Source of the DNA: Eledone cirrhosa
Lineage: Eukaryota
DNA: 22,891 nucleotides
Reading direction: 5' to 3'
Assembly (NCBI GenBank): GCA_964016885.1
Contig: CAXHJY010001121.1
Span: 1-22,891 of the forward strand
Positions 3,440 through 13,888 of the stretch are shown piece by piece. The number at the start of each line of letters is the position of its first letter. Within the stretch, counting starts at the first letter, position 1. Under the pieces are notes generated by a model. That model was not told where the DNA came from. It worked only from the letters and a program-made list of their open reading frames with translations, and ran no database searches. The translations under genes were made by a program, and so were the position numbers.

Positions 3440-3501
3440 ATTCCATTTACCAGTGGTTTCTTAAAAGCAAAAAAATTTGCTTTCAATCATCAGAATGAAA
3501 A
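3440..3501 (-). ncRNA. Type I hammerhead ribozyme, family H1 copy 1 (GUA site)
   Basis: Minus strand reads TTTCATT-CTGATGA-TTGAAAGCAAA TTTT TTTGCTTTTAA-GAA-ACC ACT GGT-A-AATGGAA. Core is intact, all three stems form, stem III is minimal. Confidence 0.85.
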
Positions 3502-3599
3502 AATCCTGGTTTGTTTATGGAATTTGGATTTTAAAAACAAAAATGCAATCTATATGAAAGTGAGGCTGGAGAAAGAAGAAGAAAAGGAAAAATAAAATA

Positions 3600-4545
3600 A
3601 AAACACACATGCAAACACACACACACACACACAAAAGCATACATACACACACACACACATATATATATATATATATATAAATATATATATATATACATAA
3701 ACTCATACATACACACACACACATATACACATATATATGTGTATATAAATACACACATACACATACATATACACATACATACGCACATAAATATCAACAC
3801 ATCCATACATACACATACATATATACAACCACACACACATATATATATATAGAAATAGAAATATATATATATATTTATATGCATACACATACACATACAT
3901 AGCCATACACACATACATATACATACATACATACATACATACATACATGCACACAATCATACCTATATACACACGTACATACATATACATACATAATGCA
4001 TACATATGCATGTACAAAGTTAGAAAAATATACACACACCTCTACATATTCACACACGCAAATAAATATAAGAAAAAATATATATAAAAAAATAAAATAA
4101 TAAAGACTATTATGCAGTTGACAGCGATACAAGCGACGAATAAATAAACAGACACGCGTGGTAAGCAATACACACAAATGCACGTACACATACGTACGAA
4201 AAAGTAAATACATACACACACTCTCACACATAAATATACATATACAAATACATAAACACATACATACGCATACACAAACACACACACATATACATATATA
4301 CACACACATATACATATACATAAATATATATATATATATATATATATATACGCACACATATACACACATATATATATATATACATACACACACACATACA
4401 TACATACATAGCTATACAATTATACACATACAAATACGTACATATCACAAACACGCACACACACACACACACATATATATATATATATATATATATATAT
4501 ATATATATATATATATATATATATATATGTGTGTGTGTGTGTGTG
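3600..4545. repeat. Compound (CA)/(TA)/(TACA) microsatellite with short unique islands
   Basis: Directly visible. Landmarks in 3600-3990 recur inverted at 5809-6130. Confidence 0.9.
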
Positions 4546-4641
4546 TAAAACTCAATCTTAGATAATTCATATGAACCTTATATAACTCCAAAATATACAT
4601 ATACATATATATAGTAATGTAATAAACAACATAAGGCAATT

Positions 4642-4704
4642 ATTCCATTCACCAGTGGTTTCTTAAAAGCAAAAAAATGTTGCCTTCAATCATCAGAATG
4701 AAAA
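4642..4704 (-). ncRNA. Hammerhead family H1 copy 2 (cleavage triplet GUG, probably inactive)
   Basis: Same motif as copy 1, but minus strand reads GAAACCACTGGTG-AATGG (C at 4650), plus stem II substitutions. Confidence 0.75.
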
Positions 4705-4977
4705 AAACCTGGTCTATCTATCTCTATATATATATATATATATATATACACATACACATACATACACATACATTTTGGTATGTGAAGTGTAAGGCAAAAA
4801 GAATATGTGGGGGGGGGGGGGGGAGACATAGGAAAAGGTGAAATATAAGGGGAGATAAGGGAGAAAAAGAATACAAGACTACAGAACGTGGATTCAGCAA
4901 ATAAAAAAACCGTAGTAGAAGTAAAGAGCAGAGAGGGAGTTGAAGGCGTTTGATTTATCATAGGAGTGTCAATCCAG

Positions 4978-5449
4978 TTACAGATCAGATCTGAAGATCT
5001 CGGTCTTTGAGTTTAGGCAAGCAGAAGTGGCTCTCAAGTTTAGCAAAATCCTATATTTTTCTGTGGTACAGAAAGAACAATTCTTTGTGCCCCTTTGGTA
5101 CTCCCTCGAATGGTCTAAGATAGACCAATCGATAGAGTACGGGATGTTACTATCCTTCAATTCTCACACCTTACTTGCGAGGGCCGTTGGTGTTCGTTTA
5201 TCGGAGCGCTTAAAAGAAGCGACATGTGAGTAAAATCTAGTTTTAAACCTGTCCTGGGTCATGCCGACATATCGCTCACTCCTGGCTGGCTGGTTGTTGA
5301 TTAACGGTGTTATTTTATCCTCATAAACAACAGATTTGGTGTTACATTTACTCTGCAATGGGCATTCATCCGGCTTCCTGCAACTGCATCCTGGATTTGT
5401 TCTCGTATGATTCGATCTAGTGATCTTGGACTTCATAGATGGGCAACAA
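4978..5449 (-). pseudogene. Naiad-type PLE GIY-YIG endonuclease region
   Basis: CSCRKPDECPLQSKCNTKSVVY linker, RYVGMTQDRFKTRFYSHVASF, ALASKV*ELKD (TGA at 5164-5166 at a Trp position), IDWSIL, CSFCTTEK, CLNSKTEI. Confidence 0.88.
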
Positions 5450-10243: not shown

Positions 10244-10840
10244 GGTGGCTGCCAACTCGTTTTCGAGTACTTTATATCCATGTAGGAGAACCACTACCGA
10301 TGCACTGAACGAGTGTGACTTTTTAGTCCAGCCAGCGACTTGAAAACTCTGGTACAAACACTACACTTGTGACAAACATTGACACATAGTGCTGGGCCAA
10401 TGGTACTATGTGACGACAAGTGCAGAGAGATCTCCAGATATAAAGCAATGCCTGTGCCGTGAAGCTTTTATAGTGAGCAAAGGCACTGCACAAAGCCAGT
10501 CCCACTCTCTTAACCAAGATGATATTTACCAAAAAGAAGAACAAGTCAACATCATTGGATACCATCAGGGTTGCAGGTGTTATATCAGAGTTTTCCTTTT
10601 CCTAGAATTCTGCCTTGACAAAGGCTAATGGGTCATCTCTCCCGGTGATTTTGGATGGCCATTGACTCTTAAGAGCTCCTTTTCCCTTTGACAGGTTTTG
10701 TTTTGAGTCCTGCAGGATGTCCAAAGTCACCCTCCTCACCAAGAAACCTTGGTGGGTTGCCAGTTTAGTCGCCAAAGACCCGACCATGAGACAGGTTGTA
10801 CTGGGATACATGTTACCAGTAGCACCAACTGGTGACCTGA
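10244..10840 (-). mobile_element. Possible RTE-clade LINE 5' UTR fragment
   Basis: GC-richer island with no credible ORF. Minus-strand CTAGGAAAAGGAAAACTCTGA and GGCGACTAAACT resemble motifs recalled from RTE 5' UTRs. Not verified. Confidence 0.3.
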
Positions 10841-12245
10841 CATATATATACACACATACATATACACATATATACATATATACACACATACACACACATA
10901 TATATACACACATACACCATACATACATATATACACATATATATATACACATATATATACATATATACACACATACATACGTATATATACATGCATACAT
11001 ATATATATATATACACACACATATATATATATATATATATATATATATATACACATATATATATACACATACATATATATATATATATATATATATACAC
11101 ACACATACATATATATATATATAATACACATACAAATACATACACACACATATGTATATATATATATACATACATACAAATATACACAGACATACGTACA
11201 CACATACATATACATATATATAGATACACACACACACACACACGCACATACATACATACACCTACATATACACACATACACACACACATATGTATATATA
11301 TATATATATATATATATATATATATATAAATACATATATACATATATATATATATATACACACATACATGTGCACACATACACATATACACATACATACA
11401 TATACACACTTACACACATATATACACACATATATATACACACATATATACACACACATACGCACACATATATATATACATATATATACACACATACATA
11501 TACATACACACATACATATACATACATATACATATATATATACATATATATACATACATATATATATATATATATATACATATACACACATACACATACA
11601 TACATATACACACACACATACACACATATATATATATACATATATATATACATATATACATACATACACACAAATATATATACATATATATATATATATA
11701 TATACATATACACACATACACACATACACACACACACATATATACACACATACACACACATATATATATACATACACATACATATATATATATATATATA
11801 TATATACACATACACACACACACACATATATACACATATATACACACATACACACATATATAAATAAATAAATACACACACAGAGAGAACCACACAAACG
11901 CATACACACATATATATAAACACACACACACACACATATATATATATATATATATACACACATATATATACACACATACACACACATATATATATATATA
12001 TATATATATATATATATATATATATATATATATATATACACATACATATATATATATATATATATATATATATACACATACATATATATATATATATACA
12101 TATATACGTATATACACATATATATATACATATATATATATATATATATACATATATATACATATATATGTGTACACATACACATACATATACATATACA
12201 TATACATATATATACACACATACACACAAATATATACACATACAA
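10841..12245. repeat. 1.4-kb compound (TA)/(CA)/(TACA) microsatellite
   Basis: Directly visible, C-polarised on the + strand. Confidence 0.95.
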
Positions 12246-13565
12246 ATAAATAAGTACTCAATAAATATACGCATATACACAGGCACATAAAAACAGCTCT
12301 ACAGGCAGAAAATGCAGATAGGTAAGAGGTACTCACATAACCATAGTGGCCGTATTTCAGGTTGAGGAGGGGTGGGGGTAGGGTGGGAAGGAGGTATAGG
12401 GGCTAATAGGAGGAGGTCGTTTTTAGCCATCGGGCTTTCACACTGGCTTAAAGTATTTGAAAGTTGCAAAGTTCTTGTGCATGCAGTTCGGGCAGTGTTC
12501 AGAGAGTTAGTTCAGTAGCGGGCCCTTGGCGAATAAAATTTCGTAGCTCTCTGAGATACAAAGGTCGCAGCCCTTGTGCCCTCCGTTGTAAGAGCGCGCA
12601 TTCTGGAGTATTTTCCATTTAAGCGTGAAGGGGGTGGAGTTCCTTTTGAGGTCCCAAACATAAGAGGCGAGTGTTGTCTGGTTCGATTTGTCCGGTCTTC
12701 TGAAGGAGTGGGTATGGGGATTCCAACGGGTCTTAAAGTTATTGGAGGTCATGCCGATGTAAGTTTTTTTGTTATTGCAATCATCGGTGGCTGAGATGAC
12801 ATCGCATTTGTATACGATATCATTTGTGAGGCATTTGTTTTCAAGTGGGCATGCTTCCTTATTTAGGCAATTACACGAAGCCCCAGTCCGGGGATTGGGT
12901 TCGGAGGTGGTTGGCTTATTTAATTTTTTAGAATTGTGGTTGGCTATATTCCTAGCTAGGTTAGGTGTAGTGGAATAGGAGAGTCTTATTGTGTTCTTAT
13001 TAAAGATGGTGTGGTACCTATGTTGTATGGGGAAGTGTAATTTCAGCAAAGTGAAGAAACTCATAGCTATCGGTGTAGAGACCTCTCTATTGAAGGGAGG
13101 GTTGTACCAGCTAATCTGCCTATGCTTATTTCTCCTCTGCAATCTTGCGGTTGTTTCTAGGTAGGTTATATTATCTTTAAATCCGCTGCGGGCGAGGGCG
13201 TCATTGTAGTAGGAGGGAGAGGCGTTAAAAATATCTTTGTTGGCGGAGAGGCCAGATATTCTAATAGAGACGCTTTATACTAGGTTATCAGTGATGTTTT
13301 GGGGGTGGTTTGAATTAACATTAATATATCTAAGGGACTCGTTAGATTTGTGGTACGGGTAATAGAGGGAAGTATCTAGGTCGAGAGTGACAGCCAAGAA
13401 GTTGGCACTAGTCAAATTAGATTCTATAGTTATACTAAATCCTAGATTAGAGAAGAACTGGCTTAAGTTTTTCCGAAATACATTGGTAGATCTGGGGTTA
13501 ACCTTGTGCAGGGCGAAGAGGCCGTCGTCTCGGTATAAACCTCCGGTTAGGCCGGTAAAGAGATA
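12246..13565 (-). mobile_element. 5'-truncated Naiad-type Penelope-like element D
   Basis: Coding remnant at 12438-13560 plus pyrimidine-rich 3' UTR, flanked by microsatellite. Confidence 0.88.
12438..13560 (-). pseudogene. PLE RT (from catalytic motif) plus GIY-YIG endonuclease
   Basis: Single frame: GLYRDDGL (YRDD at 13524-13535), ANFLAVTLDL, YINVNSNHP, WYNPPF, CNCLNKEACPLENKC, IVYKC...YIGMTSNNFKTRW, CDLCISE, LLN*LSEHCPNCMH. Two TAA stops (13275-13277, 12507-12509). Probable true stop TGA at 12438-12440. Confidence 0.92.
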
Positions 13566-13640
13566 TATGTTAATATATATATATATATATATATATATAT
13601 ATAATATATGAGATCAAAAGATGGTTAAAGGAGTTCCATG

Positions 13641-13710
13641 TATTTTATTATGCGCATTTAAAAAACAAACATCATCATGCAATAATATTTGTGTTTTCAT
13701 CAGATAAAAC
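13641..13710 (-). ncRNA. Hammerhead family H3, inverted copy with G12 mutated
   Basis: Same as the + copy except GAAA reads TAAA (A at 13660). Confidence 0.7.
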
Positions 13711-13818
13711 AGGAGGACATGATATGAAGGCTAAAAAACACTTGTGGATAGTGCAGTTTTAAATCAACATAACTGCACTATCCACAAGTGTTTTTTAGCC
13801 TTCATATCATGTCCTCCT

Positions 13819-13888
13819 GTTTTATCTGATGAAAACACAAATATTATTGCATGATGATGTTTGTTTTTGAAATGCGCATAATAAAATA
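13819..13888 (+). ncRNA. Type I hammerhead ribozyme, family H3 (AUA site)
   Basis: GTTTTAT-CTGATGA (13826-13832). Long stem II ACAAATATTATT/GATGATGTTTGT with three G-U pairs. GAAA at 13869-13872, palindromic stem III ATGCGCAT, A17 at 13880, then ATAAAAT. Confidence 0.85.

What the first reader, a model, noticed from the sequence alone, without database searches (positions are those of the whole stretch)
3440..13888. Six hammerhead ribozymes from three families within 10.5 kb
Seen: H1 (three copies), H2 (one) and H3 (two), each with CUGANGA, GAAA (TAAA in one), and stems I-III. Four have intact cores and NUH sites. Known: PLE pLTRs carry minimal type I hammerheads with short or palindromic stem III that cleave as dimers. 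H1 has ACCA-C-TGGT, H3 has ATGCGCAT, while H2 has a monomer-competent 4-bp stem III. Inference: several ribozyme-processed retroelement families converge on the same microsatellite niche.
Basis: partly seen in the sequence, partly recalled or inferred. Interest (0 to 1): 0.75.

Follow-up and report, generated by a model that had tools for sequence, protein, structure and literature searches.

The report
Penelope hammerheads, one with muted twin
The six hammerhead-ribozyme motifs are real but come from only three insertions of a known kind of jumping gene that targets TA repeats; one family also carries a second, internal copy with an inherited change predicted to block its cut site, which may act as a built-in partner for the terminal ribozyme or may be just a silenced passenger.

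Summary
All six motifs are at the stated places, fold as type I hammerheads and exceed chance (0 of 1000 shuffles reach the 3 strict hits); no Rfam hammerhead model was listed. They come from three insertions of Hydra-clade Penelope-like elements (PLEs): PLE-A gives H1 x3, PLE-B gives H2, PLE-D gives H3 x2. Other genome copies link each motif to a reverse transcriptase/GIY-YIG gene with Hydra motifs. Hammerheads, (TA)n targeting and inverted ends are published for this clade, and this scan noted such clusters before, here and in other genomes.
Corrections: H2's family stem III has a central CTAG palindrome (21,354 exact copies); this copy is a damaged variant. The H1 at 4696 is not a decayed copy. 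It is an internal second hammerhead about 1.2 kb upstream of the terminal one, with an inherited G17 (56 of 61 internal copies G; 63 of 63 terminal copies A; 350 exact copies genome-wide). Folding predicts a double hammerhead with only the terminal site open. Constraint on the internal core is inconclusive (p 0.07-0.2), and an A17 sister subfamily also spread. No RNA data; cleavage untested.

The parts
3345..3409 (-). PLE-A one-sided tail beyond the usual 3' end, then (TA)n shared with PLE-C
   Evidence: terminal H1 copies: 32 end in TA 38 nt past the cut, 25 continue into this tail, 40 other, n=97
3441..3500 (-). H1 terminal hammerhead of PLE-A; core at 3493, GUA, predicted cut after 3448
3501..4610 (-). 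PLE-A 3' UTR spacer between the two hammerheads: unique blocks and inherited complex microsatellites
   Evidence: colinear with L261 at 87%
4643..4703 (-). H1 internal hammerhead with inherited G17 (4650), inside an ~110-bp copy of the element's 3' end (4611-4716) sitting in the element's own (TA)n
4773..5455 (-). PLE-A proximal 3' UTR and broken endonuclease region (CxCX5C linker, GIY-YIG-like)
5450..6295 (+). Inverted arm of the same PLE-A insertion: ORF piece 5450-5808, then a jump to the 3' microsatellite and terminal hammerhead
   Evidence: 5747-5808 mirrors 5394-5455; 6128-6298 mirrors 3432-3602 at 96%
6230..6289 (+). H1 terminal hammerhead of the inverted arm; core at 6237, predicted cut after 6282; the arm stops about 13 nt later at a LINE
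6293..7843 (+). Broken, 5'-truncated LINE (RVT_1), unrelated to the hammerheads; end approximate; CR1/L2-like label is recalled, not tested
9565..10113 (-). PLE-B distal 3' UTR and 3' end (ends in TA 22 nt past the cut)
   Evidence: colinear with L154 and L263
9580..9629 (-). H2 hammerhead of PLE-B; core at 9623, U10.1-U11.1 mismatch, predicted cut after 9586; this copy damaged in stem II and loop 3
10114..12240 (.). Expanded microsatellite inside the PLE-B 3' UTR, with a nested ~600-bp repeat (10244-10841)
   Evidence: L075 has the same order without the insert
12240..13565 (-). PLE-B proximal 3' UTR and 5'-truncated ORF (RT YRDD, CxCX5C linker, GIY-YIG-like endonuclease), with stops
13611..13918 (.). 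PLE-D stub: back-to-back pair of 3' ends (96% inverted repeat) beside the TA tract at the 5' break of PLE-B
13641..13711 (-). H3 copy with G12>U (UAAA), core at 13703; predicted inactive. The same change is seen in L171 among the listed family copies
13818..13888 (+). H3 hammerhead of PLE-D; core at 13826, palindromic stem III AUGCGCAU, predicted cut after 13880
13919..14014 (+). PLE-D one-sided tail, then (TA)n

Best explanation
The six motifs are the 3'-end hammerheads of three Hydra-clade Penelope-like retrotransposon insertions that sit in TA repeats, and they likely cut tandem element transcripts into unit-length RNA by pairing two hammerheads through their palindromic stem III. Shown: motif anatomy; linkage of H1, H2 and H3 to three different RT/GIY-YIG genes; inverted 5'-truncated layout; TA flanks; ends 22-43 nt past the predicted cut; in L263 the sequence after the H2 cut runs straight into the 5' end of the next ORF. 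Inferred from known PLE biology: dimer cleavage, then copying of a circular or tandem RNA across the junction by the element's RT after its endonuclease nicks (TA)n. PLE-A also carries a second same-strand hammerhead ~1.2 kb upstream of the terminal one. It likely arose when a short 3' stub inserted into the element's own (TA)n. It later changed A17 to G once, and that lineage spread. G17 is predicted to block internal cutting by C3-G17 pairing, keeping the long RNA in one piece. Whether the internal core also serves as the enzyme half for the terminal site is open (about 25% helper, 65% silenced passenger, 10% brake).
For: Linkage: H1 follows the PLE-A endonuclease in most of 30 loci and in L260, L261, L264. 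H2 follows PLE-B in L075/L154 and precedes its ORF in L263. H3 follows a third endonuclease in L156, L160, L162, L170, L173. Hydra motifs CxCX5C, DKT, RWK/RWR, CxxC..E..N..CxH are present and CCHH is absent. Published Hydra hammerheads show the same ACCA-N-TGGT and ACAG..CTGT stems and the U-U pair at the base of stem II (File S2). Abundance: 3,990 + 350 exact H1 words and 21,354 H2-type words, reversed controls 0. Stem III self-duplex against hairpin: -8.2 vs +0.4 (H1), -12.8 vs -1.4 (H2 family), -10.5 vs +4.7 kcal/mol (H3). H1 and a sister family: 93% of cells paired, 3 pairs changed on both sides, 2 of 500 shuffles reach the covariation score; 9 hand-picked related rows, so weak. Internal copy: G17 in 56 of 61, terminal A17 in 63 of 63; one A>G change on the tree; absent from sister-family copy L181.
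Against: No cleavage, RNA or circular-RNA data for these families. Published PLE hammerheads cleave weakly in vitro (PMC4209133). H1 has U10.1-A11.1 and its sister family C-A, not the G-C pair that paper calls highly conserved. No Rfam hammerhead match was listed. An A17/A17 subfamily with two cleavable-looking sites also spread (18 of 104 internal copies in a set that includes a search aimed at them), so G17 is not required for mobility. G17 slows stabilised hammerheads only 8-100-fold (PMC3884650), so the internal site may be muted rather than dead.
Confidence: 0.82

Rival explanations
1. Built-in helper: the internal G17 hammerhead is kept as an enzyme-only partner. Its core cuts the terminal GUA in an asymmetric double hammerhead while its own site is blocked, so one element RNA is cut once without a second tandem copy.
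For: The cofold MFE of internal + terminal (-35.1 kcal/mol, against -26.1 for the two monomers) is a double hammerhead with the internal core open on the terminal GUA and the other core shut by C3-G17. In a dimer only a substrate-side change silences the internal site without hurting the terminal cut, and that is the change seen (inference). Core letters are intact in 75 of 84 G17 copies. On inner branches of the G17 lineage: 0 changes at 11 core sites, 0 in stem I, 2 at the free N7, 74 in 295 flank sites.
Against: Normalised to tip changes the deficit is p=0.07. Between G17 subfamilies it is 1 of 47 against 23 of 356, p=0.20; even the terminal positive control reaches only p=0.053, and one 80-nt flank is equally invariant. 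N7 agrees between internal and terminal sites in 39 of 51 elements, which may reflect conversion rather than selection. In a fold of the whole 1,330-nt UTR the productive stem I has probability 0.045 (unreliable because of the microsatellites). PLE-B, PLE-D and the sister family have no intact internal copy in the copies read.
Confidence: 0.25
2. Brake: the internal G17 strand captures the terminal enzyme half in a dead C3-G17 complex and so slows or times terminal cleavage.
For: In the whole-UTR partition function the terminal-5'/internal-3' stem I with C3-G17 has probability 0.63. C3-G17 trapping is discussed in PMC3884650.
Against: A brake needs only the substrate strand, yet the whole motif is kept. 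The long-range fold is unreliable. The same pairing is one half of the productive dimer.
Confidence: 0.1
3. The motifs belong to non-autonomous tandem retrozymes rather than to coding PLEs.
For: The top 30 H3 hits and many H1/H2 hits are short stubs with no ORF within 1.5 kb. Retrozymes are proposed PLE derivatives (bioRxiv 10.64898/2026.07.22.740005).
Against: There are no short head-to-tail hammerhead repeats in the window. Longer copies of all three families run into PLE ORFs.
Confidence: 0.05
4. The motifs keep a hammerhead shape but do not cleave in vivo; they serve as an RT-binding or template-jump structure.
For: Insertions end 22-43 nt beyond the predicted cut, not at it. Low in vitro activity of PLE hammerheads and 'functions other than self-cleavage' are left open in PMC4209133. 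Naiads spread without canonical hammerheads.
Against: Core, NUH and palindrome are kept across many unrelated families in this genome. The fixed A17>G change at the internal site makes most sense if the site could be cut (inference).
Confidence: 0.12

Closest known systems
Hydra-clade EN+ Penelope-like elements, incl. Hydra-1_Obim (Craig et al. 2021, PMC8557442; read: passages, section 11, supplement part 2 of 59 with the File S1 Hydra sheet and File S2 hammerhead table)
   Same: C-terminal GIY-YIG, CxCX5C linker, DKT, RWK, no CCHH, (TA)n targets, a 3' type I hammerhead, inverted 5'-truncated copies, a one-sided tail. Hydra-1_Obim has stem III ACCA-A-TGGT; several Hydra families have the U-U pair at the base of stem II.
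   Different: Longer 3' UTRs (about 1.1-1.5 kb in PLE-A and PLE-D) with inherited microsatellites in PLE-A and PLE-B; tails of about 65-95 nt against 30-40. H2 has an 8-nt loop 3 with an inner palindrome against 2 nt in the listed ACAG..CTGT families. No Hydra row of File S2 lists two same-strand hammerheads in one 3' UTR or a G at the cleavage site.
Minimal/dimeric PLE hammerheads (Cervera and de la Pena 2014, PMC4209133; read: parts 1-2 of 4) and the review PMC6765202 (passages)
   Same: Type I motif in pLTRs, palindromic helix III, pairs on opposite strands 100-700 bp apart, proposed dimer cleavage and circular template.
   Different: No bulge at the start of stem II and no G10.1-C11.1 here; an internal same-strand partner is not described in the parts read.
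Double-hammerhead cleavage of ASBVd and amphibian retrozymes (PMC6466107, PMC7229834; passages)
   Same: A short palindromic stem III is rescued by pairing of two motifs; a U-U pair at the base of stem II occurs in axolotl HHR_Amex2.
   Different: Those dimers are symmetric, with both sites cleavable; PLE-A would be asymmetric, with one site muted.
G17 hammerhead variants (Kalweit and Hammann 2013, PMC3884650; read: abstract, discussion)
   Same: G17 impairs cleavage, likely through C3-G17 pairing; natural G17 motifs are mentioned as unpublished.
   Different: Engineered variants of monomeric, tertiary-stabilised ribozymes; no natural, inherited G17 inside a retroelement was analysed in the parts read.

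Membership tests
Type I hammerhead ribozyme | CUGAnGA and GAAA core with NUH site | tested here: met
   Met in 4 of 6 motifs; G17 in one and UAAA in one
Type I hammerhead ribozyme | Stems I-III in type I order, supported by variation | tested here: met
   93% paired and 3 two-sided changes in H1 plus its sister family; H2 and H3 covariation not scored
Type I hammerhead ribozyme | Match to Rfam hammerhead models | tested here: not met
   No hammerhead listed at E<=10; the -3493 and -4696 copies were scanned only, whose list was cut
Type I hammerhead ribozyme | G10.1-C11.1 closing pair | tested here: not met
   U-A (H1), U-U (H2), A-U (H3); U-U is also listed for published Hydra motifs
Type I hammerhead ribozyme | Self-cleavage | not testable with these tools
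   needs a bench assay or raw RNA reads
Hydra-clade PLE | RT followed by C-terminal GIY-YIG endonuclease | tested here: met
   YRDD RT then endonuclease in PLE-A, B and D; Pfam GIY-YIG for PLE-B E=0.0019, below the curated cut-off; no Pfam hit on the two short PLE-A pieces
Hydra-clade PLE | CxCX5C linker | tested here: met
   CSCRKPDEC (A), CNCLNKEAC (B), CNCRIKNKC (D)
Hydra-clade PLE | DKT in place of DKG; RWK motif | tested here: met
   A: RWK and DKT (L261); B: RWR and DKT (L263); D: that region not present in the copies fetched
Hydra-clade PLE | No CCHH in the endonuclease; CxxC and CxH around E and N | tested here: met
   read by eye in A, B and D translations
Hydra-clade PLE | Insertion into (TA)n and a 3' hammerhead | tested here: met
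Hydra-clade PLE | Placement in the Hydra clade on an RT tree | not tested
   no reference proteins were loaded
Non-LTR retrozyme | Non-coding tandem repeats of 150-450 bp, each with a hammerhead | tested here: not met
   none in the window; families link to ORFs
Asymmetric double hammerhead (proposed) | Internal core under constraint | tested here: inconclusive
   p=0.07, p=0.20 within the G17 lineage

The most novel reading that the evidence does not exclude
A Penelope-like retrotransposon captured a copy of its own ribozyme and turned it into a dedicated enzyme half. The internal G17 hammerhead cannot be cut but cleaves the terminal site in an asymmetric double hammerhead, freeing the element from needing a tandem partner. 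This is a natural division of labour between two hammerheads in one RNA, with the ancestral A17/A17 form still in the genome for comparison.
Probability: 0.25. Interest if true: 0.62.

Novelty: new variant of a known kind. Interest (0 to 1): 0.36.

Why it matters
The cluster itself is ordinary for this genome and clade. The useful part is PLE-A. What PLE hammerheads do is called unclear in PMC8557442, and dimer cleavage has mostly been argued from artificial constructs. PLE-A offers a natural series in one genome: one hammerhead (sister family), two with A17, and two with internal G17. These allow a direct test of whether PLE ribozymes cut in vivo, work as dimers, and are selected against internal cutting. 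If the helper reading holds, it is a new way for a retroelement to control where its RNA is cut.

Tried and rejected
Rfam: the whole-window scan was swamped by microsatellite matches to miRNA models; local scans listed no hammerhead. The repeat finder was uninformative because of TA tracts; masked self-BLAST was used instead.
Sequencing runs: no RNA holder listed, four runs of unknown kind from one study; no reads were laid, so there is no evidence either way on expression.
A decayed internal H2 copy in the PLE-B 3' UTR: the full alignment beat 2000 shuffles only narrowly (59 against a maximum of 57, helped by a C-rich tract) and the ribozyme part did not (124 of 2000 reached it). Not claimed.
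H3 as a stand-alone foldback or MITE: rejected once longer copies led to an ORF. Three first extensions found no PLE ORF. The near-constant inversion point is partly an artefact of my query start.
First constraint test (1 shared allele in 48 structured sites against 0.04-0.25 per flank site) looked strong but mixes different copy sets; matched tests weakened it. Rows dropped: 3 of 131 H1 rows (identity <=0.7); the tree used 64 of 104 internal copies; one search used 102 of 104.
Sampling bias: searches return only the 40 best hits. One search used a G17 query and an A17 query. In the less biased subset, 34 of 39 internal copies are G, still tilted towards the window's subfamily.
Literature: no description of an inherited internal G17 hammerhead in a PLE turned up in searches (0 papers), 71 and 85, or in scan notes. 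These are word searches of open papers only. Lunse et al. 2017 on dimer-cleaving PLE hammerheads was not held (recalled only) and could bear on this, as could the unread supplements of PMC4209133 and the bioRxiv paper.

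
Full report
Setting. The window is a whole 22,891-bp contig (G000:C1148) of a 3.0-Gb genome, rich in (TA)n. Earlier scan notes call similar material octopus (unchecked), and the closest published motif is from Octopus bimaculoides.

Observation. A strict type I descriptor finds H1 +6237, H1 -3493 and H3 +13826. Relaxing N17 adds H1 -4696 and relaxing G12 adds H3 -13703. None of 1000 dinucleotide shuffles of the 12,989 unique bases reached 3 hits. H2 -9623 has core, stem I (6 bp) and stem III (4 bp) but a weak stem II. Rfam listed no hammerhead model at E<=10 in three local scans.

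Three insertions. Masked self-comparison and comparison with genome copies resolve the stretch. PLE-A spans 3345-6295: on the minus strand an endonuclease piece, 3' UTR, internal H1, microsatellite-rich spacer, terminal H1 and tail; on the plus strand an inverted arm with its own terminal H1, stopped by a LINE. PLE-B spans 9565-13565: a 5'-truncated ORF, 3' UTR, an expanded microsatellite with a nested 600-bp repeat, and H2. L075 shows the same order without the insert. PLE-D is a back-to-back stub at 13611-14014; longer copies run through about 1.1 kb of UTR into a third endonuclease gene.

Family. All three genes have the CxCX5C linker, lack CCHH and carry CxxC and CxH around E and N. PLE-A has RWK and DKT, PLE-B has RWR and DKT. 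These are the features given for the Hydra clade, which is described as carrying hammerheads and inserting into (TA)n (PMC8557442 section 11). Its supplement lists ACCA-A-TGGT for Hydra-1_Obim, ACAG..CTGT stems, and a U-U pair at the base of stem II in many families. I built no RT tree. Exact-word counts are 3,990 (H1, A17), 350 (H1, G17) and 21,354 (H2 type), with reversed controls 0. Among 86 control loci of 3.1 kb, 24 hold a hammerhead of another family, so clustering in TA tracts is common here. The scan has reported such clusters before.

Likely working. Stem III is far more stable as a self-duplex than as a hairpin in all three families, which fits the published dimer model (PMC4209133; PMC6765202). 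H1 could still form a 3-bp hairpin and H2 a 4-bp one, so monomer cleavage is not excluded. Copies end a fixed distance past the predicted cut (38 nt for H1, 22 for H2, 42-43 in the few H3 copies scored; my H3 rule left 42 of 64 unclassified) or continue into a tail. In L263 the H2 tail is the 5' end of the next ORF. So the template passed through the ribozyme junction, as expected for a circular or tandem RNA (inference). Cleavage itself is untested; no RNA run was listed.

Correction on H2. Family copies read TTCTAGTC in loop 3, an interrupted palindrome, and TTTCTAAAGAAT in stem II. The window copy has lost both features, so it is a damaged copy rather than evidence for a monomer-type family.

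The internal H1. After removing duplicates by coordinate, internal copies have G17 in 56 of 61 (A 3, C 1, gap 1) and terminal copies A17 in 63 of 63. With two more aimed searches, 104 internal copies split into G 84, A 18, C 1, gap 1; cores are intact in 75 of 84 and 17 of 18. On a tree of 64 elements rooted on an A17 copy, A>G occurs once; the root rests on A17 copies being closer to the terminal motif. A sister family (74-76% endonuclease identity) lacks the internal copy in the one full 3' UTR read (L181). The internal copy is therefore likely a self-inserted ~110-bp stub that became part of the element. G17 impairs cleavage at least 300-fold in minimal and 8-100-fold in stabilised hammerheads, probably by C3-G17 pairing (PMC3884650). 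The two-strand MFE of internal plus terminal is a double hammerhead in which the internal core faces the terminal GUA and the other core is shut by C3-G17.

Helper or passenger. For the helper: the fixed change is on the substrate side, and inner branches show no change at 11 core sites but two at the free N7. Against: the tip-normalised test gives p=0.07; between G17 subfamilies 1 of 47 constrained sites differs against 23 of 356 flank sites (p=0.20), the terminal control is itself borderline (p=0.053), and one flank is equally invariant. The A17/A17 form also spread. N7 agrees between the two motifs in 39 of 51 elements, so conversion may contribute. The whole-UTR fold favours the dead pairing, though it is unreliable. 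I put passenger silenced by G17 at about 65%, helper 25% and brake 10%.

Verdict. Observation confirmed; interpretation partly supported. The cluster is three new members of a known clade doing what that clade is known to do. The two-hammerhead 3' UTR with an inherited G17 is a shown structural variant that I did not find described (searches; one relevant paper not held). Its function is open and easy to test. Interest 0.36.

Noticed in passing
window 2460-3325 (-): A fourth PLE (PLE-C) of another type: GIY-YIG with CxxC and two His (Pfam PF01541 E=1.2e-4), 5' inversion at 3078-3325, sharing the TA tract with the PLE-A tail. No CUGAnGA was found in 1915-3325. Neptune/Nematis-like is a recalled label.
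   Followed up: partly
G000:C28:84.6-114.6 Mb: 23 of the 40 best hits to the N7=A, G17 subfamily lie in one 30-Mb stretch of contig C28, suggesting local hopping or a chromosome-specific burst.
   Followed up: no
L127, L134, L139, L006 versus L002, L132: The free core base N7 changes from T to G in both internal and terminal hammerheads of one subfamily, with two intermediate elements; short-tract conversion or parallel change.
   Followed up: partly
L128:1834: A single element in which the internal-type 5' half is joined to a terminal-type A17 end, as if the spacer between the two hammerheads was removed by recombination near stem III.
   Followed up: no
window 8009-9392: TA-flanked repeat built of a 547-bp direct repeat and nested inversions (98-99% identical), with no hammerhead core; PLE-like layout, family unknown.
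   Followed up: no
window 19178-19358 and 22231-22411: A 181-bp TA-embedded element with an inner foldback, present twice at 100% identity 3,053 bp apart inside a 6.7-kb TA array (tandem duplication or assembly artefact); it recurs in many fetched loci.
   Followed up: no
window 15782-16145: About 360-bp imperfect foldback between TA tracts, also matched in L068.
   Followed up: no
window 14205-15308 (+): LINE fragment with RVT_1 and a PHD-like Cys-rich insert between RT parts; RTE-like is a recalled label.
   Followed up: no
fetched loci: At least eight further hammerhead families with palindromic stem III (for example ATATATAT, ACTAGT, ACTAATTAGT, AGTACT, ACCATGGT) occur in the flanks.
   Followed up: no
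L122:2743-2812 and relatives: The H1 sister family has a C-A mismatch at the base of stem II (10.1-11.1) in nearly all copies listed.
   Followed up: partly
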